Source: Escherichia phage TM1. Taken from it: a DNA stretch of 39,948 nucleotides. The DNA lies in sequence record OM908436.1. One strand, 5' to 3'. Each line of letters opens with the position of its first letter. Position 1 is the stretch's first letter. Below, piece after piece: positions 8,160 through 15,596 of this stretch. Made by a program: the position numbers and the translations under genes. The notes beneath the pieces are model-generated. The model had not been told where the DNA came from. It did no database searches and saw only the letters and a list, made by a program, of their open reading frames with translations.

Positions 8160-8605
8160 TGCGTCACCTCCTTATCTTGCTGCAAGGCTCTCACGGTGTC
8201 CTGAAGGGCCTTAATCCACTTGTCGCCTTTCACTCCGATGGCGATAAGACGTTTAGCATCTCGTTCGTCAAGTTCGGCGTAACCATCAACGATGCATCGA
8301 CCGTCACTTTGCGTGGCTCCACTCGTAGGTTTGACTCGGATGCGCAGCCGCTTATTGTCAGACTGAAGGTCAGCAATAATCCTATCAGTGCTGCCTTCCA
8401 GCGAGGACATTTCGTCCTGAAACCGTTTGGACACTTTGCTGACTTCAGCTTGGACAGCAAGTCTTTTATCTTCCGATGCCTTAAGATTCGAGGTGTATTC
8501 TGCATTTATCTTAGCCTCCCACTTATTGTTAGCGGTGTGGTAGCCACCAGCAAACATCACTGCTGCAAGTAACCACGGAGCCGCTCTCTTTAAAAATTCG
8601 AGCAT
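8156..8605 (-). CDS. gp18.5: Rz-like inner-membrane spanin (T7 gp18.5-like)
   Basis: 149 aa, N-terminal TM segment [12 protein letters not shown] followed by a coiled-coil-like region; position after small terminase. Confidence 0.8.
8230..8505 (-). CDS. gp18.7: Rz1-like outer-membrane lipoprotein spanin embedded in the +1 frame of gp18.5 (T7 gp18.7-like); true start probably internal
   Basis: Lipobox-like LTISGC followed by a proline-rich segment; fully embedded in the Rz-like gene as in T7 and lambda. Confidence 0.55.
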   Translation of the reverse strand: MQNTPRILRHRKIKDLLSKLKSAKCPNGFRTKCPRWKAALIGLLLTFSLTISGCASESNLRVEPRKVTVDASLMVTPNLTNEMLNVLSPSE

Positions 8606-8667
8606 AGTTGCCCTCCCGGTTTATCAGATTTCACGTAGAGTCGCCTCCACTAGTTAGTGTTAACCAT

Positions 8668-8702
8668 AAAGGCCACTACATATAGTAATGACCTTGAGTC
8701 TA
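8668..8702 (-). promoter_or_regulatory. Conserved RNA hairpin between small terminase and spanin genes (candidate RNase III site, R18.5-like)
   Basis: CATAAAGGCCACT-N10-ATGACCTTGAGTCTA; transcript forms an 11-bp stem with two G-U pairs; two near-identical copies at about 31972 and 38797. Confidence 0.55.
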
Positions 8703-8706
8703 ACAC

Positions 8707-8970
8707 TTATTGAACGCCATACCCTGTGTCATTATCCTCAGTCGCTGAAAGCACCTTATCGTACTCTGCGTTCAGGGCCTCCATATCAGCCAGCGTCTTC
8801 TCGTCCACAGACACCTTGCTTAACACAAAGTTGTGGCGAGCAAGCAGCTTCTCAATGGCGTTGTAGAGCTGAGGTGAACGCTTAGAGTCATCCCGCAGGT
8901 CTTGCAGCATGAGTCGAGCACGTTCAGTATCTAGCATTAAGAGGAACTTCTCTAAGTCCATCTGCGTCAT
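8707..8970 (-). CDS. gp18: Terminase small subunit (T7 gp18-like)
   Basis: 87 aa, position between holin and Rz-like genes; size matches T7 gp18. Confidence 0.75.
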   Translation of the reverse strand: MTQMDLEKFLLMLDTERARLMLQDLRDDSKRSPQLYNAIEKLLARHNFVLSKVSVDEKTLADMEALNAEYDKVLSATEDNDTGYGVQ

Positions 8971-9161
8971 GTTTTACCGCCTCCTTTAATCGTTTTGTAG
9001 ACTAGCACACCAATCTGGACAACGGTGTACGCGATAGCTGCAACGTAGAACCATTCGTTCAGTGTGAGTCCAAAGAAGAACCGACTGGCACCATCAGCCG
9101 CAGCGGTCCCGACGATAGGAGAGGCTTTAAGGACCTCATTCTTGAAGTCTAACTCAATCAT
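8967..9161 (-). CDS. gp17.5: Class II holin (T7 gp17.5-like)
   Basis: 64 aa; FFFGLTLNEWFYVAAIAYTVVQIG matches T7 gp17.5 LFFGLSLNEWFYVAAIAYTVVQIG. Confidence 0.85.
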   Translation of the reverse strand: MIELDFKNEVLKASPIVGTAAADGASRFFFGLTLNEWFYVAAIAYTVVQIGVLVYKTIKGGGKT

Positions 9162-9203
9162 AAAACCTCCAGTTTAAAGCGGGTCATCCTTGACCCAAAG
9201 TTG

Positions 9204-11204
9204 TTACCAGTAGTACCAATCACCTTTCCTACTTCTAATTAGAACAGAGCAATCGGCAACAGGTACTGTAGATACCCCACCAATCCTTATCTCATATAAT
9301 TTACTGGGTAGTCTTTTCTTAGTTAGAGATGCTTTAAAATCTGTACCGGTTACAGTGATATATTCTGTCCCCTCCTCACTAGCTATCTGTAGGTCCAGGC
9401 CACTGGGACTTGCTGGCAACTTAACATAAAGCTGCTGTTCTGCTGTACTACCGGCGAAATGACCAATAACGGTAGTTGTCCACTCACTCAAAGTCAGCCC
9501 TGAACGCACAAAATCTACATTAAGGGGTTCCTTAATAAGTGCAGCAGGTGCGTTGTAATTATGCCCGTTAAGTACATAGTAGTTGCTGCTGCCAACCTCT
9601 ACTGTGTCTGCTGTGCAATATGAGTGGAATGTTCTTGAATTATCAAAACGATAAAGACTTCTGATTAGCACACGCTCTTGATTACTTCTGGTTAAGATGC
9701 CACAACCAGCAGATAGGTGAAGTGTAGAGATGGTAAGTGTATGACTCTCGCTGTTAGCCTTAGACGACAATAATGATACCTTCGGCTCACCCACCTGAGT
9801 GAAGTCTTTACTGTTGCCCTCGCAGTACATAACCCCAATGTCCCACGCAGCAGGGTCCATTGTTACCACACCAGCACCAGATGTATTCTCAGAGCAAATC
9901 ACACCAACACTAGTAGATAAACCACGACCTAAGATAATACCAGCACCTATCGTATATTTACTCGCATCATCTGTGATTGGGTCATAACCTAGTCCAGTAG
10001 ACTTATCTGTACCCCATGCACTAATGTGAGGGAAGTGTGTAGCATTTACATAGGTATCCCCTTGCTCACCTTCCGTTGAATAACCTAATGCCATGCCCCT
10101 TGCACAGTTGTTTGCATGGAGAGTACCCATTTGAAAATACCAGCAAGCAAACATTACAATGCCATATCTATTAGCATTATATGCATAGATACTACCCATC
10201 TCGGATTCTGCACACATTAGTCGTGCGTAAAAACCGTACGATGCAATGTCTGCACAGTCTATGTTAAGACTACCAATCAAACGTAGCCCTCGTACTTGGT
10301 TCTCAGTATTAGCTACATCAACGGTTTTGGTTCCAATAGGAAATTTACTAACACGAACAACAGATTTTAATGCAGGCCATGTTGGACCAATTGCTTTAAT
10401 TGTTGCCCCATTTAGATTCCCACGTAGGTAAGAGGGGATAACAACCTCATCTGTTACGTGGTAGGTAGCCTTGCCATCAAGGTTTAATGTGCCTGTAGCT
10501 ATGGCCAATTTTATAGCAGGTAGACAGTCAAAGCTGGGGTCGTTCGGGATTGCCCCAAAGTTCTCAGGTGAGTGCTCATCAAGCCCATCCAGCTTACCTA
10601 CGTTAGTCCAATTGGAATCAGGGGTTGAACCTGCAGGCACTGTTTTTGGGAGAGCACCATCCCAGCGGTAATAATAACCATCCTCTTCCCTTAGCAGGAC
10701 CTCGTTCCATAGTGTAACGGTGAAGCCTTTCTCGAAGGAGCTACGGGTAATATAGCCAATTAGACCAGCCTCCCTGATACTCGAAACTATTCGTCGTGCT
10801 TCGTCCTCGCTATCCTTAGCGCTGCCAGCAGAGTTACCAGCAGCATCGGCATATTCCTTCGCTAAGTCAACAGTTTGGTCTCGCCCTTCTTCTGCAATAT
10901 GGATAGCCTGAAGCTCCGAATTGGTCAGGTCACTAGCTGTCAACACTGAGCCATTCCTGAAGTCTACCACTAAGTCAGTTCCAGTCTGACGGTGAATACG
11001 CACGACGTCGAAACCTGATTGGTCAGCCAACATCTCAATCATCGTTGGATTAAGGAATCGGTAATCTCGACCAACTTCCAGTACACGGTTCAGGGCAGGG
11101 TTAGAGCTATTCACCAGCGTAACAACAACAAACGTTCTGGCTAGGTAGTCGAACTCAATCCTGTACCGAGTGTTTCCTGAAGGGAATTGTGTAATCGTGG
11201 ACAT
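9204..11204 (-). CDS. gp17: Tail fiber / tailspike: T7 gp17-like N-terminal domain fused to a non-T7 C-terminal receptor-binding domain (probable beta-helix polysaccharide depolymerase)
   Basis: N-terminal [13 protein letters not shown] and [14 protein letters not shown]...[11 protein letters not shown] match T7 gp17 FEYLARKFVVVTL and VDFTDGSILRAYDL...QTMHVAEEARD; residues from about 150 onward have no T7 counterpart and are rich in short G-x-hydrophobic repeats. Confidence 0.85.
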
Positions 11205-11250
11205 TATGCCTCCTTTGTGATTTAAATGGAGACCTATGGTAGCGCCTCCA

Positions 11251-11273
11251 GTTTCCTATAGTGATAGTTTAGT
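11251..11273 (-). promoter_or_regulatory. Phage-RNAP promoter upstream of the tail fiber gene (phi17-like)
   Basis: ACTAAACTATCACTATA/GGAAAC; overlaps the gp16 stop codon. Confidence 0.7.
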
Positions 11274-14200
11274 CCTTGATGTGGATGCCTTGCTCCTCAA
11301 ACGTTCCAAGCAACAGCTTCTGGGTAATTGGGTCGTTCGGAACCAGTTCACGGAACGTATTATACATCCCGGTCATGTAGTCACGCTCGTTGACGCGAGT
11401 ATCAGCCTTGAGGTAGCCAGCCAAGTTGTAAGCCGAAGCGCCAACGTTAGCAGCATATCCGAAAGCTGGAACCTGCTCCAAGAAGTTACCAACAACATTC
11501 ATAACAGGGTCACTTGTAGACGCACCATACGCGATGGCGCGTTCAGGCTTCTCTGTAGGCGAACGAGGTAGGATAGACGAACGTAGCATCTTAGTGTCCT
11601 CATACCCAGCGATGCCACCCAGAATGTTAGCTACCCCAAGTGGGCCACCCAGATGTGAACTACGGGACAGAGCCGCATAACCAATCATCGTCGGGTCAAG
11701 AGCTTGCTTGAGGTATTCACGGTCTCTGCCATCCTGCATAGCGTAAGCCTTGACGTGAGCCTGAGCCATGTAGTAGATACCAGCCAGACCCATAGACATC
11801 ACAGTGGACAGAGCAGCATCCATCGCTCGGTTGTTCTTCGTGGCGTTATAGAAGGTTCGCATGGTACGTCCATTGATGGACTTGATGACGAAGTTCTTAA
11901 ACTGAAGGACAGTCTTAGCGAGAGGGCCATAAGCCTTGGCGTCCATGTTTGACAGCTTGTGGGGCCGGAGTAACGTTTCGTCAGCGATGGTGTCACCCAT
12001 ACGCCACAGGTCCATAGCCCTTGGGTCCTGACTGAACGCCTTCTTATCCTTGATGGTGTACTTCCCGTCTGGACCACGAGTCACTGACTCACGGATTAAT
12101 GACTTAATGCCCTTCCACTGCTCGTCAGATATACCAGCGGTCTTCAGCCATCTGTCATCGAACTTACGCTTACTGCCAGTCAGACTATGCTCCACGATGT
12201 CAGACAGGAAGCCTTGACGTCCAGCATCTAACAGGTAGTTGGTCGTACCGTTGAGGACTTTAGTGAACGGAGAGCGTACTGCAAGTTCGCCAGTGTAATA
12301 CTTGGCAGAGCCTAAAGCCGTAGCCGCAGGTTTACTCAAGGCGCTGTAAGACCGAAGACGGTCAATGACATCCTGTTTAGACGGACGGATTGAGTCATCA
12401 AGCTCCTTACCGAAGATAACATTGTGCAGGTCCTTAATCTCTGAGGCTCCTACCTTCTTGTTACGGAAGGCTAGGTCACGGAATATCGGGACTCCATGAA
12501 GCATTGCACGAACGTTACCACGAGCCAGCATACCACCAATCTCCGTTAAGTTCTGAACACCCATGTAGGCATTCTTAGCGAAGAACGATAGGTCAGTCAT
12601 TGTTCGCATCACGGTAGCGAAGGCTGCATCGTCAGCACCATCACGTCGAGCACGACCAGTTAGAATCTTCAGGGTGTCACGCAAGGTAGATACTTCACCT
12701 TTCAACTTTCCGTCATCACCAGCCTTGTTCATCATGGTCTCAACCAAGTCCTTCATTTCTTTCGTTGTCTTGCCTGTACCAGCCATAATAGCAATGTCAC
12801 CATTAACTCGACGGTTGTATGCCGGGACAATCTTGTCCATGTCCCACTCACGCAGGTTGTTGACACTGAAGGTTTGACCATTAGGAAGAATTATTGACAT
12901 ATCGCTGTCGAACAGGTTACGAGCCTCAAGGAAGCTGTTGTTCTCCAGACCCACCAGACCGTTGATGTTCTCTTCCATTACGGATGAACGCTCGAACTGC
13001 TCGGTGTGAGAGATACCATAAGCCTTATCGTTGGCGTACTTATCGACCGCAGCCGCAAGTCCTTCTGGAGTCAACGTAGGGTCAGCCTCTAGGAGTGCCT
13101 CGTCCACACGTTTCTTGACCTCAGGTCGAGACGCATAGCTGGTCAACCATGACTTCTTGATGGCCTCCTGTAGTGCCTCTGGACTTCCAAGCTCCTTGAT
13201 GTACAGCTCCTTCATCTGGTTGCTATACACATGTGGGACGTAGGTTCCCTTGAATCGGCTACCCGGAAAGATAGACTGAGCGTCTGGACGACCAAACATC
13301 GCCGGGTTCTCCATCATCTCACGCTTGGCGTCAAACTGGTTCTTCAGCAGGTCATAGACTTTCAGTTCTCCCGGAGTCAGTTCAGCCTTCAGGTTCCCAC
13401 TTCCGTCTTCAATAGCCATAGACACACGCTGGTAGATGTCCTGACGGAATGCGCCAGAGTCTCGCCAGAATGCTGTCTGGAAGTATGGGTCCTTGAGAGC
13501 CTCAGTAACCGCGTCGTCAATGTCGTTGTAGAACCGATGGTCAACAGCACGAAGTCTCTCGAATACGTCTGACGCAGTGGTCCCGATTTTACCTGAGGCC
13601 CCTGACTGCATACCTGTTGGTGAACGCACTAAGTCAGCAGCGACTCCGCGAATCTCAGGGTTCTCAGACCGAAGCAGCTTCAGGCCAATCTCAGTTAGCC
13701 CACCAAGGTTCACACCAGCAGCGGCACGTTCAGGCTCAATCACTTCGTCAAAGACCTTACGTGTCTTAGGGTTCAGAGGGTTTTCACCAATCAGTATTGA
13801 ACCGTCTTCTAATCGTACACTACCCGGCTCATTCGGAACGTCAGCGAACTTAACACCTTGATGACTAAAGGTCTGCTCACCTTCCTGAATAGGGAGACGA
13901 GACAGGTCCTGACCATCAACGTTACGGGCTGTCTCACGAGCTTCCAGACGTGTAGCTGGGCCAGCGAACTCGTTAGTGTTGCGACCTAAGGCTCTGCCTA
14001 GGCCATCAGCGATAGCAGTCATGCCACCACCGAAGAGAGCACCGCCAAGGATAGCTTCAGCCACATGAGCATCACCACCAGCCACTGAGGTACGGGCCAT
14101 CTCGGACACACCAGACAGTGCTCCAGATTGAGCAGCCACGGTGAACATCTTGTTGACCAGCTTACCGCCTTTACCAACCTGTCCAGCTATAGGAACGTAG

Positions 14201-15165
14201 GTCAGCGGGTCTACACCCGAACCAATCACACCAGCAGCTAACTGAGCACCAGTCCCAGCCTTGGCCTTCTCTTGGTCCAACTTCTGGTTCTCAAGAGCCA
14301 AGTTAATAAGCTCGGTCAGGTTCTGAGGGGAGCCACCAGTGATGACCCCGTAATACTGAGGAAGAACTCCAGCGTTACGAATCTGGTCCAGCTCCTCACG
14401 AGACCACTTATGGTTGTTCCAGCGGGTCGGGTTAAACACATCGCCAATGACATCAAGTGAGTCCTCGGTCTGACCAGCGCGGATAGCCACGCCGACCATA
14501 GAGTTCTTCACTTCAGCTTCTGTAGCCTGGCCGAAACCGAACCACGTAGAGCGATCCTCTCGTTCCTGCATGGTCTCGCCAGCAGACTTATAGAACATCT
14601 CACCGAACGATTCGTTGGGAGCTTCAGGTGCTTGACCCTCAATGTTTAGACCAGCAGCGGTCGGAAGGTTCTCGCCCAGAGCTACTTTAGGTTTAGCCTT
14701 GAGTCCTTCCGTGAGTGCGTCAAATACGTTAGCGCTTACTGGTGGAGTCTTTGGGGTGATGCCCCCAGCACCACTTAAGGCGCGAGAGACTCCTAGCTTG
14801 TAGACCTCAGGGTCATACCGGGAACCAGTCTCATGGTAGCCGATAGCCTCAGACAGAGAGGCGAGGACATCAGGGTTCGTCAGGTCGATACTTTGTGTTG
14901 CTGGAATACCAGTCGCAGCCACAACAGAGTTGATGTAGGACTGAGTGTCGTTCTCATTAGGTGGTGCCCAGCGGTTGATAATCTTCTCGATAGAATCATA
15001 GCCCTGTCGACCATATGACATCAGGTTCTTAGCCAGAGCGCGTACACCGGAGTCGGGGGTGTCAAAAGTCACGAACGCCCCGTCATCACCCGTAGCCCCT
15101 TCCCACTGGTCCTTGGACACACGGATGTTCCCGATGTTGTTGTTTCTTATTCCACGTGCTGCCAT
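11269..15165 (-). CDS. gp16: Internal virion protein D with N-terminal lytic transglycosylase-like region (T7 gp16-like)
   Basis: 1298 aa versus 1318 in T7; position between gp15 and the tail fiber. Confidence 0.85.
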   Translation of the reverse strand: MAARGIRNNNIGNIRVSKDQWEGATGDDGAFVTFDTPDSGVRALAKNLMSYGRQGYDSIEKIINRWAPPNENDTQSYINSVVAATGIPATQSIDLTNPDVLASLSEAIGYHETGSRYDPEVYKLGVSRALSGAGGITPKTPPVSANVFDALTEGLKAKPKVALGENLPTAAGLNIEGQAPEAPNESFGEMFYKSAGETMQEREDRSTWFGFGQATEAEVKNSMVGVAIRAGQTEDSLDVIGDVFNPTRWNNHKWSREELDQIRNAGVLPQYYGVITGGSPQNLTELINLALENQKLDQEKAKAGTGAQLAAGVIGSGVDPLTYVPIAGQVGKGGKLVNKMFTVAAQSGALSGVSEMARTSVAGGDAHVAEAILGGALFGGGMTAIADGLGRALGRNTNEFAGPATRLEARETARNVDGQDLSRLPIQEGEQTFSHQGVKFADVPNEPGSVRLEDGSILIGENPLNPKTRKVFDEVIEPERAAAGVNLGGLTEIGLKLLRSENPEIRGVAADLVRSPTGMQSGASGKIGTTASDVFERLRAVDHRFYNDIDDAVTEALKDPYFQTAFWRDSGAFRQDIYQRVSMAIEDGSGNLKAELTPGELKVYDLLKNQFDAKREMMENPAMFGRPDAQSIFPGSRFKGTYVPHVYSNQMKELYIKELGSPEALQEAIKKSWLTSYASRPEVKKRVDEALLEADPTLTPEGLAAAVDKYANDKAYGISHTEQFERSSVMEENINGLVGLENNSFLEARNLFDSDMSIILPNGQTFSVNNLREWDMDKIVPAYNRRVNGDIAIMAGTGKTTKEMKDLVETMMNKAGDDGKLKGEVSTLRDTLKILTGRARRDGADDAAFATVMRTMTDLSFFAKNAYMGVQNLTEIGGMLARGNVRAMLHGVPIFRDLAFRNKKVGASEIKDLHNVIFGKELDDSIRPSKQDVIDRLRSYSALSKPAATALGSAKYYTGELAVRSPFTKVLNGTTNYLLDAGRQGFLSDIVEHSLTGSKRKFDDRWLKTAGISDEQWKGIKSLIRESVTRGPDGKYTIKDKKAFSQDPRAMDLWRMGDTIADETLLRPHKLSNMDAKAYGPLAKTVLQFKNFVIKSINGRTMRTFYNATKNNRAMDAALSTVMSMGLAGIYYMAQAHVKAYAMQDGRDREYLKQALDPTMIGYAALSRSSHLGGPLGVANILGGIAGYEDTKMLRSSILPRSPTEKPERAIAYGASTSDPVMNVVGNFLEQVPAFGYAANVGASAYNLAGYLKADTRVNERDYMTGMYNTFRELVPNDPITQKLLLGTFEEQGIHIKD

Positions 15166-15596
15166 GTTAATCTCCTCTTGATTCGACTAATAGTTACTGG
15201 TGAGATTCCTAAAATCCGTGCCAGTTCCACACCACTCTTCTCACTTGAACGGATAAACCTGACGTCATCTTCAGTAAGTACGCAGGTACTAATCTGAGAG
15301 CCTTTAGCTTGACGACCTCTCTTGGTCATATCCTCCATGTTGTCACGATGTGTCCCTAATACTAAATGTTTAGGGTTCACGCAATACCTGTTGTCGCATG
15401 TGTGACGAAGTACACTACCTTTCGGTATTGGACCATTCGCTAACTCATAGGCAACACGATGCGCTCCTACGGTCTTTCCGTCGACCCATATGTTTCCATA
15501 CCCACTGCTGTTCAATCCTCCAGTGAAGCGGATACAGCCAGTTTCTTCCGAAATAGAAAGACGTGCCAGTCTCTCACTGGCTGTCCCGTTCTTCAT
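15147..15596 (-). CDS. HNH homing endonuclease inserted between gp15 and gp16
   Basis: 149 aa; GYGNIWVDGKTVGAHRVAYELANGPIPKGSVLRHTCDNRYCVNPKHLVLGTHRDN is a typical HNH motif with conserved H/C/N positions; T7 has no gene here. Confidence 0.75.
   Translation of the reverse strand: MKNGTASERLARLSISEETGCIRFTGGLNSSGYGNIWVDGKTVGAHRVAYELANGPIPKGSVLRHTCDNRYCVNPKHLVLGTHRDNMEDMTKRGRQAKGSQISTCVLTEDDVRFIRSSEKSGVELARILGISPVTISRIKRRLTWQHVE

What the first reader, a model, noticed from the sequence alone, without database searches (positions are those of the whole stretch)
9204..11204. Chimeric tail fiber: T7 gp17 adaptor domain fused to an unrelated beta-helix-like receptor-binding domain
The first ~150 residues align closely with the T7 gp17 N-terminal domain that docks on the tail ([24 protein letters not shown]). 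The remaining ~515 residues have no similarity to the T7 fiber shaft or tip. They are rich in short G-x-hydrophobic repeats ([28 protein letters not shown]), which I read as a right-handed beta-helix of the kind seen in phage tailspike depolymerases. This is the likeliest host-range determinant and suggests the receptor is a capsule or O-antigen rather than rough LPS.
Basis: partly seen in the sequence, partly recalled or inferred. Interest (0 to 1): 0.7.

Follow-up and report, generated by a model that had tools for sequence, protein, structure and literature searches.

The report
Modular Kayfunavirus tailspike with swapped beta-helix
This gene is the receptor-binding tailspike of a T7-relative (Kayfunavirus) coliphage: a conserved tail-docking front end joined to a horizontally acquired sugar-cutting-type beta-helix, which is the usual way these phages change host and is not a new kind of system.

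Summary

- **The gene:** window 9204..11204 (minus strand) encodes a 666-aa protein identical to the deposited "tail fibers protein" of Escherichia phage TM1. It sits in the gene-17 position of a Kayfunavirus genome.
- **Front end:** residues 10-114 are the T7 gp17 N-terminal adaptor (Pfam PF03906; 40% identity to T7).
- **The junction:** it lies at residue ~196/197, not ~150. DNA similarity to a K1-specific Kayfunavirus stops at window 10618 and resumes at 9208. A G7C-like (N4-type) phage contig matches exactly the stretch in between at 86%, so this is a clean cassette swap.
- **Same module elsewhere:** it also follows P22 head-binding, tail-collar and true T7 N-termini.
- **Untested:** enzymatic activity and receptor identity (O-antigen versus capsule) are inferred only.

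This is a new member of a known kind, and interest is low to moderate.

The parts
9204..11204 (-). Tailspike / receptor-binding protein gene (gene-17 position), 666 aa plus stop codon
   Evidence: ORF listing. The protein is identical to USL94541.1 'tail fibers protein [Escherichia phage TM1]'. It lies between internal virion protein D and the holin, by synteny with the MT350292 annotation.
11255..11263 (-). Phage-RNA-polymerase promoter-like core CACTATAGG just upstream of the gene (equivalent of T7 phi17)
   Evidence: Eight exact copies in the window, all on the minus strand, against 0.28 expected. Sequence read. T7 has promoter phi17 at the same relative place. Function is inferred.
11209..11215 (-). 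Shine-Dalgarno AAGGAGG, 4 nt before the ATG
   Evidence: Read directly from the sequence.
10863..11177 (-). Residues 10-114: T7 gp17-type N-terminal tail-docking (adaptor) domain
   Evidence: PF03906 E 1.5e-16. 40% identity to T7 gp17 over residues 6-113. Near-identical over residues 1-198 (E 6.1e-114) to the solved tail spike 9vvr_A.
10746..10862 (-). Residues 115-153: Ala/Glu/Asp-rich linker. It contains the motif [16 protein letters not shown], which resembles T7 gp17 QYATSAGNSASAAHQSE.
   Evidence: Local match to T7 residues 185-235. The same motif is the junction in the 768-aa variants that carry a true T7 N-terminus.
10614..10745 (-). Residues 154-197: Tail_spike_N small beta domain (CBA120 TSP1 / G7C gp66 type). 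Its 3' end is the recombination junction.
   Evidence: PF18668 E 2.7e-13. PDB sequence hits to CBA120 TSP1, TSP3 and TSP4 over residues 151-198. Six short strands in the model. A 50-nt, 76% match to the G7C-like contig at window 10670-10621 is consistent with 'motif one' of PMC10408124.
9205..10617 (-). Exchanged receptor-binding cassette (residues ~197-666)
   Evidence: Similarity to Kayfunavirus F ends at 10618 and resumes at 9208. The G7C-like contig L004 matches window 10610->9204 at 85.9%. GC is 0.436 against 0.503 for the rest of the window, in the lowest 0.3% of same-size windows.
9576..10565 (-). Residues ~214-543: N-terminal cap ([21 protein letters not shown]) and right-handed parallel beta-helix, the putative glycan-binding and glycan-cleaving body
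9207..9521 (-). Residues 562-666: C-terminal eight-stranded beta-sandwich domain, reached through a low-confidence linker (residues 544-561)

Best explanation
The gene encodes the single receptor-binding tailspike of a Kayfunavirus (T7-relative podophage; the identical protein is deposited for Escherichia phage TM1).

**How it is built.**
- Residues 1-~115 dock the protein on the tail, as T7 gp17 does.
- A short linker and a Tail_spike_N domain (residues 154-197) replace the long T7 shaft.
- Residues ~214-543 form a right-handed parallel beta-helix of the pectate-lyase-like tailspike class.
- Residues 562-666 form a C-terminal beta-sandwich.

**How it most likely works.** It assembles as six trimers. 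The beta-helix most likely binds, and probably cleaves, a surface polysaccharide of the host (O-antigen or capsule). This lets the virion reach the outer membrane and sets the strain range.

**How it arose.** Residues ~197-666 are a mobile cassette acquired by recombination at the end of the Tail_spike_N domain and at the stop codon. An 86%-identical copy at DNA level sits in a G7C-like (N4-type) phage.

**Shown versus inferred.** Shown: the domain homologies, the predicted fold and the recombination boundaries. Inferred: trimer state, docking geometry, enzymatic activity and receptor class.
For: **Gene and context.**
- ORF and identity to the TM1 protein.
- Synteny: internal virion protein D, this gene, holin, small terminase, Rz, large terminase.
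- The backbone is 93-95% identical to many Kayfunaviruses.

**Front end.**
- PF03906 and PF18668 both score above their Pfam cutoffs.
- 40% identity to T7 gp17 over residues 6-113.
- The solved tail spike 9vvr (18 chains in one entry, consistent with 6 trimers) is near-identical over residues 1-198, E 6.1e-114.

**Fold of the back end.**
- Confident AF2 model.
- Foldseek probability 1.0 to CBA120 TSP2, TSP3 and TSP4, Klebsiella K2-2 TSP and Depo32.
- Seven of 32 distant homologs hit PF12708, best E 1.3e-16.

**Cassette.**
- Boundaries mapped against Kayfunavirus F and the G7C-like contig.
- The contig is G7C-like, and the homolog is one of its two tailspike genes.

**Same module in receptor-binding positions elsewhere.**
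- At the gp9 position of a P22-like E. coli prophage.
- Behind PF09008, PF12571, and PF18668 alone.
- Behind a true T7 N-terminus.

**Literature.** PMC10408124 documents this anchor-plus-RBD modularity and conserved junction motifs in Kayfunaviruses and Gamaleyaviruses.
Against: - No experimental data on this RBD subtype were found.
- The protein itself has no Pfam, NCBIfam or PDB sequence match beyond residue 198.
- Only a monomer was modelled.
- The low GC of the cassette is also seen in other RBDs (0.449 for the K1 endosialidase part, 0.403 for the P22-like prophage RBD). It therefore does not prove the direction of transfer.
Confidence: 0.8

Rival explanations
1. It is a binding-only spike. 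The beta-helix recognises a surface glycan or protein but has no depolymerase activity, so it works as an adhesin.
Against: Most of the top structural neighbours are enzymes: depolymerases, glycosidases, lyases and epimerases. Several acidic residues (D316, E333, E462) are conserved down to ~20% identity across the family, and E439 is invariant among the closer homologs. Seven distant homologs match the rhamnogalacturonase/epimerase family PF12708.
Confidence: 0.15
2. It is a T7-type fibre. The C-terminal part forms a fibrous shaft with a small tip domain that binds rough LPS or an outer-membrane protein.
For: The N-terminal 110 residues are homologous to T7 gp17, and the deposited annotation says 'tail fibers protein'.
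Against: There is no significant similarity to the T7 shaft or tip. The model is a globular beta-helix plus beta-sandwich with high confidence, and all top fold matches are tailspikes or beta-helix enzymes.
Confidence: 0.02
3. It is an endosialidase-type K1 capsule spike like K1F gp17, diverged beyond recognition.
For: The N-terminal 198 residues are ~93% identical to those of K1-specific Kayfunaviruses.
Against: BLASTP finds nothing beyond residue 203 against the 1064-aa endosialidase of phage vB_EcoP_F. The predicted fold is a beta-helix, and no endosialidase appears among the listed fold matches. No C-terminal chaperone domain or any other Pfam domain is detected.
Confidence: 0.01

Closest known systems
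Kayfunavirus gp17-type receptor-binding proteins (K1F / vB_EcoP_F endosialidase; solved tail spike PDB 9vvr)
   Same: Same genome position. The N-terminal anchor, linker and Tail_spike_N (residues 1-198) are near-identical, at about 94% DNA identity in ~150 phage records. Same anchor-plus-exchangeable-RBD logic (PMC10408124).
   Different: The C-terminal 470 residues are unrelated to the endosialidase. In the phage collection they occur only in the records named Enterococcus phage EFA-1 and EFA-2.
T7 gp17 tail fibre
   Same: Homologous N-terminal tail-docking domain (40% identity over residues 6-113; PF03906) and a short shared Ala/Ser/Gly-rich motif. Same gene position, with a phage promoter upstream.
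   Different: No T7 coiled-coil shaft, pyramid or tip domains. It is a beta-helix spike rather than a fibre.
Beta-helix tailspikes and depolymerases: CBA120 TSP2/TSP3/TSP4, phi29 gp12, Klebsiella K2-2 TSP / Depo32, Acinetobacter APK16 / AS12 / AM24
   Different: Sequence identity is only 9-16% in the structural alignments. There is no sequence-level match of the beta-helix to any solved chain, even with a family profile. Substrate and catalytic residues are unknown.
Tailspike of a G7C-like Gamaleyavirus (metagenomic contig L004, protein P0035, 692 aa)
   Same: The RBD is 91% identical at protein level and 85.9% at DNA level over exactly window 10610->9204. A Tail_spike_N domain lies upstream.
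   Different: It has a different N-terminal anchor and about 85 extra residues between Tail_spike_N and the RBD. It belongs to a 72-kb N4-type phage with two tailspike genes.
P22-like prophage tailspikes of E. coli (P0067 and similar; PF09008 head-binding domain)
   Same: Homologous RBD (38-40% identity over 99% of the cassette) in the gp9 tailspike position next to the integrase.
   Different: It has the P22 head-binding anchor. The divergence is too great to transfer glycan specificity.

Membership tests
T7 gp17-type tail fibre N-terminal adaptor (Pfam PF03906) | Sequence match to the family profile above the curated cutoff, at the N-terminus | tested here: met
   60.9 bits against a cutoff of 25.2, residues 10-114. 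40% identity to T7 gp17 residues 12-119.
T7 gp17-type tail fibre N-terminal adaptor (Pfam PF03906) | Encoded at the gene-17 position, after internal virion protein D (gp16) and before the holin, in a T7-like genome | tested here: met
   Synteny with annotated Kayfunavirus records and with T7.
T7 gp17-type tail fibre N-terminal adaptor (Pfam PF03906) | Docks as six trimers at the tail adaptor/nozzle interface | not testable with these tools
   Indirect only. The solved chain 9vvr_A, near-identical over residues 1-198 (E 6.1e-114), occurs as 18 chains in one entry.
T7-type fibre (full-length gp17: shaft plus tip) | Coiled-coil shaft and C-terminal pyramid and tip domains homologous to T7 gp17 residues 150-553 | tested here: not met
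   No significant BLASTP alignment beyond residue 113. The model is a beta-helix.
Tail_spike_N (Pfam PF18668, CBA120 TSP1 / G7C gp66 type) | Profile match above the curated cutoff, immediately upstream of the receptor-binding body | tested here: met
   50.2 bits against a cutoff of 25, residues 154-197. PDB sequence hits to CBA120 TSP1, TSP3 and TSP4 over residues 151-198.
Right-handed parallel beta-helix tailspike / polysaccharide depolymerase (pectate-lyase-like superfamily) | Right-handed parallel beta-helix fold | tested here: met
Right-handed parallel beta-helix tailspike / polysaccharide depolymerase (pectate-lyase-like superfamily) | Sequence membership of a curated beta-helix family (such as PF12708 or PF13229) | tested here: inconclusive
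   The protein itself has no Pfam hit at E up to 10. Seven of 32 homologs found by exhaustive HMMER search hit PF12708 and one hits PF13229.
Right-handed parallel beta-helix tailspike / polysaccharide depolymerase (pectate-lyase-like superfamily) | Homotrimer | not testable with these tools
   Only monomer prediction was available.
Right-handed parallel beta-helix tailspike / polysaccharide depolymerase (pectate-lyase-like superfamily) | Catalytic acidic residues in a glycan-binding groove, and demonstrable cleavage of O-antigen or capsule | not testable with these tools
   Conserved candidates are D316, E333 and E462 and E439. Their spatial arrangement and activity were not assessed.
Endosialidase (K1F gp17 type) | Sequence similarity to a K1-type endosialidase body beyond the shared anchor, and a C-terminal chaperone domain | tested here: not met
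   No similarity beyond residue 203 to the vB_EcoP_F endosialidase. No further Pfam domains. The predicted fold is a beta-helix.

The most novel reading that the evidence does not exclude
The cassette (residues ~197-666) is the founding, still uncharacterised member of a small depolymerase family. That family has only 35 clusters at E<=1e-3 among 1.84 billion representatives, no Pfam model and no solved relative. It would have a glycan specificity (an E. coli O- or K-type) for which no phage enzyme is yet assigned, and it has recently moved between at least three podophage lineages: Kayfunavirus, T7-anchor variants and G7C-like phages.
Probability: 0.45. Interest if true: 0.35.

Novelty: new member of a known kind. 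Interest (0 to 1): 0.25.

Why it matters
- **What it determines.** The tailspike cassette is the probable host-range determinant of this phage.
- **Practical use.** The mapped junctions are the end of Tail_spike_N at window ~10610-10618 and the stop codon at ~9204-9208. They give ready-made boundaries for RBD-swap engineering across Kayfunavirus, T7-type and G7C-type scaffolds.
- **If it is an enzyme.** It would add one more serotype-specific polysaccharide depolymerase, useful for typing or anti-virulence work.
- **Conceptual value.** It only illustrates the already documented modular evolution of receptor-binding proteins (PMC10408124).

Tried and rejected
- **Literature.** Searches for phage TM1, PDB ids 9VVR and 9LNA, and UP17, TSP7_1 and EFA-1 found no characterisation of this RBD.
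- **E. coli genomes.** A DNA search of the cassette against 5,426 complete E. coli genomes gave no match, so no serotype could be inferred from prophages at DNA level.
- **GTDB species genomes.** The scan first failed for lack of conserved columns. It then found 45 pattern matches, none confirmed.
- **IMG/VR.** Only 2 loci were found.
- **NCBIfam and PDB sequence searches.** Residues 500-591 gave a weak class A beta-lactamase match (E 3.7e-4, 20 bits against a cutoff of 625). I rejected it as spurious.
- **Pfam LEA_4.** The hit at residues 104-132 (16.8 bits against a cutoff of 51.1) was rejected as low-complexity linker.
- **GC content and direction of transfer.** The cassette's GC (0.436) fits the G7C-like genome (0.44), but other RBDs are also low in GC. 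The direction of transfer is left open.
- **Rivals.** A T7-like fibre and an endosialidase were tested and rejected.

Full report
**Observation**

The window carries an ATG-to-TAA ORF of 666 aa at exactly 9204..11204, on the minus strand. The protein is 100% identical to USL94541.1, 'tail fibers protein [Escherichia phage TM1]', from a 39,948-bp contig, which is the length of this window.

The window is a Kayfunavirus genome (Autographiviridae, Studiervirinae). The structural and replication regions are ~93-95% identical to many Kayfunavirus records. The order on the minus strand is internal virion protein D (11269-15165), this gene, holin (8967-9161), small terminase, Rz, large terminase. This follows the annotation of the closest record, MT350292, and of T7 itself.

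Upstream of the gene lies a phage-promoter-like CACTATAGG core at 11255-11263. It is one of 8 copies, all on the minus strand, against 0.28 expected. An AAGGAGG ribosome-binding site follows.

**Anatomy of the conserved front end**

- **Residues 10-114** match Pfam PF03906, Phage_T7_tail (E 1.5e-16). They are 40% identical to T7 gp17 residues 12-119.
- **Residues 154-197** match PF18668, Tail_spike_N (E 2.7e-13). This is the small domain found just before the body of the CBA120 TSP1, TSP3 and TSP4 spikes.
- **Residues 1-198** as a whole are near-identical to a solved 'tail spike protein', 9vvr_A (E 6.1e-114; 18 chains in one entry). They are ~94% identical at DNA level to about 150 phage records.

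So the conserved anchor is about 198 residues long, not ~150. Its resemblance to T7 proper is moderate, at 40% over ~110 residues. Beyond that, T7 gp17 shares only a short Ala/Ser/Gly-rich motif.

**The C-terminal 470 residues**

They have no Pfam hit even at E 10 and only one weak PHROG hit. No solved chain matches by sequence, even with a 35-sequence family profile.

An AlphaFold2 model of residues 150-666, built on 35 aligned homologs, has mean pLDDT 87.9 and pTM 0.72. It shows four parts:
1. a six-stranded small domain (Tail_spike_N);
2. a capping helix around the motif [21 protein letters not shown];
3. a long run of short beta strands to residue ~543;
4. after a low-confidence linker (residues 544-561), a separate beta domain.

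Fold searches agree that part 3 is a right-handed parallel beta-helix.
- Foldseek against the PDB ranks CBA120 TSP3 first (E 5.6e-9), then Klebsiella K2-2 TSP, CBA120 TSP4 and TSP2, Depo32 and the AM24 tailspike.

Transitive sequence evidence points the same way. Seven of 32 homologs from an exhaustive HMMER search hit PF12708, the rhamnogalacturonase/epimerase pectate-lyase-like family (best E 1.3e-16), and one hits PF13229, Beta_helix.

**Mosaic boundaries**

BLASTN of window 8600-11800 against the K1-specific Kayfunavirus vB_EcoP_F shows 95% identity from upstream down to window 10618. There is then nothing until 97% identity resumes at 9208.

A 71.7-kb metagenomic contig is 93% identical to phage G7C outside its spike genes. 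It carries two tailspike genes after the terminase and adaptor genes. It matches exactly the complementary stretch, window 10610 to 9204, at 85.9% DNA identity and 91% protein identity.

The exchanged cassette is therefore residues ~197-666. Its junctions lie within ~8 nt at the end of Tail_spike_N and within ~4 nt of the stop codon.

A 50-nt stretch just upstream of the junction (window 10670-10621) is 76% identical to the end of the Tail_spike_N region in the G7C-like gene. This fits the conserved 44-nt 'motif one' that PMC10408124 proposes as a recombination hotspot shared by Kayfunaviruses, Gamaleyaviruses and others.

The cassette has GC 0.436 against 0.503 for the rest of the window, in the lowest 0.3% of equal-sized windows. 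That equals the GC of the G7C-like contig (0.44). Other RBDs are also low in GC, so I leave the direction of transfer open.

**Distribution**

- **Phage collection:** of 50,697 records, only the two Kayfunavirus records named 'Enterococcus phage' EFA-1 (flagged UNVERIFIED_ORG) and EFA-2 carry the full gene. Six further records carry 28-41% relatives annotated as tailspikes or hypothetical proteins: Escherichia UP17, Dompiswa TSP7_1, Aeromonas KLEA5, two Vibrio phages and an Acinetobacter K32 tailspike.
- **5.8-billion-protein set:** there are ~30 near-identical 666-aa versions, mostly on ~38-40 kb contigs.
- **768-aa variants:** these have a true T7-type N-terminus, spliced at the shared YA(D/T)(A/S)AG(N/S)SA motif.
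- **Other anchors:** 692-aa and 866-aa versions with other Tail_spike_N anchors, 55% relatives in Proteus and Providencia chromosomes, and 38-42% relatives with the P22 head-binding domain. Relatives at about 31-34% identity, found in the exhaustive search, carry a tail-collar N-terminus.
- **P22-type example:** one sits at the gp9 tailspike position of a P22-like E. coli prophage, next to the integrase.
- **Exhaustive HMMER:** among 1.84 billion representatives, only 35 clusters reach E<=1e-3. This is a small family.

**Mechanism**

Shown:
- a T7-type docking domain, a Tail_spike_N domain, a predicted beta-helix body and a beta-sandwich;
- a cleanly exchanged cassette;
- relatives occupying the receptor-binding position in at least five different phage architectures.

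Inferred from established knowledge of T7 gp17, P22 gp9 and the CBA120 TSPs:
- six trimers dock at the tail;
- the beta-helix binds and probably cleaves an O-antigen or capsular polysaccharide, bringing the tail to the outer membrane and setting the host range.

Conserved acidic residues are candidate catalytic or ligand-binding residues. D226, E253, D316, E333 and E462 are conserved even among ~20%-identical relatives, and E439 is invariant among the closer homologs. I could not examine their positions in three dimensions.

**Comparison and verdict**

This is the standard Kayfunavirus receptor-binding-protein design: a conserved anchor plus an exchangeable receptor-binding domain. The design is documented in PMC10408124.

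Membership of PF03906 and PF18668 is met. Membership of the beta-helix tailspike class is met at the level of predicted fold, and is untested for trimer state and catalysis. Membership of the T7 fibre proper and of the endosialidases is tested and not met.

The finding is correct but ordinary: a new, uncharacterised member of a well-known kind, already deposited in public databases under a generic name.

Noticed in passing
proteins P0031-P0034 (768 aa, on ~39 kb contigs); junction corresponds to window ~10845 (residue ~120): Variants carry the same RBD and Kayfunavirus linker behind a true T7-type gp17 N-terminus plus part of the T7 shaft (~220 residues). The splice is at the motif shared by T7 (QYATSAGNSA) and Kayfunavirus ([10 protein letters not shown]). 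This looks like a second recombination junction, which would let T7-type phages carry this spike.
   Followed up: partly
window 2566, 6283, 11255, 18969, 23530, 24527, 27347, 38838 (all minus strand): There are eight exact CACTATAGG cores, all on the coding strand, against 0.28 expected by chance. These are probably the phage-RNA-polymerase promoters of this genome.
   Followed up: partly
MT808983.1 (L009 470-2770) versus the window gene: The phage-collection record named Escherichia phage TM1 (39,817 bp, taxid 2762279) has a different 767-aa fibre that shares only residues 1-203 with the window protein. Yet the identical 666-aa protein USL94541.1 is also named TM1, with the same taxid, on a 39,948-bp contig. 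These are either two versions or two phages under one name.
   Followed up: partly
MT350292.1 / MT350293.1 (L001): The only deposited full-length relatives are called 'Enterococcus phage EFA-1' and 'EFA-2', with host given as Enterococcus faecalis. They are classified as Kayfunavirus, and EFA-1 is flagged UNVERIFIED_ORG. The Gram-positive host attribution is almost certainly wrong.
   Followed up: no
window 15147..15596 (minus strand): A 149-aa ORF lies between internal virion proteins C and D. It corresponds to the gene annotated 'HNH endonuclease' in EFA-1, and is probably a homing endonuclease inserted in the structural operon.
   Followed up: no
window 9181..9196 (minus strand): A short hairpin, GGGTCA-AGGA-TGACCC, followed by GCTTTAAA, lies between the spike stop codon and the holin start. 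It is inside the conserved Kayfunavirus backbone, not the cassette. It may be a weak terminator or RNA-processing site.
   Followed up: no
L004 2791-5619 and 6001-8079: The G7C-like contig has two tailspike genes (942 aa and 692 aa), both with Tail_spike_N. The G7C match covers only 71% of the 14-kb locus, and I did not map which parts are missing; they may include the spike RBDs. In the 692-aa protein about 85 residues lie between Tail_spike_N and the shared RBD, and these are absent from the window protein.
   Followed up: partly
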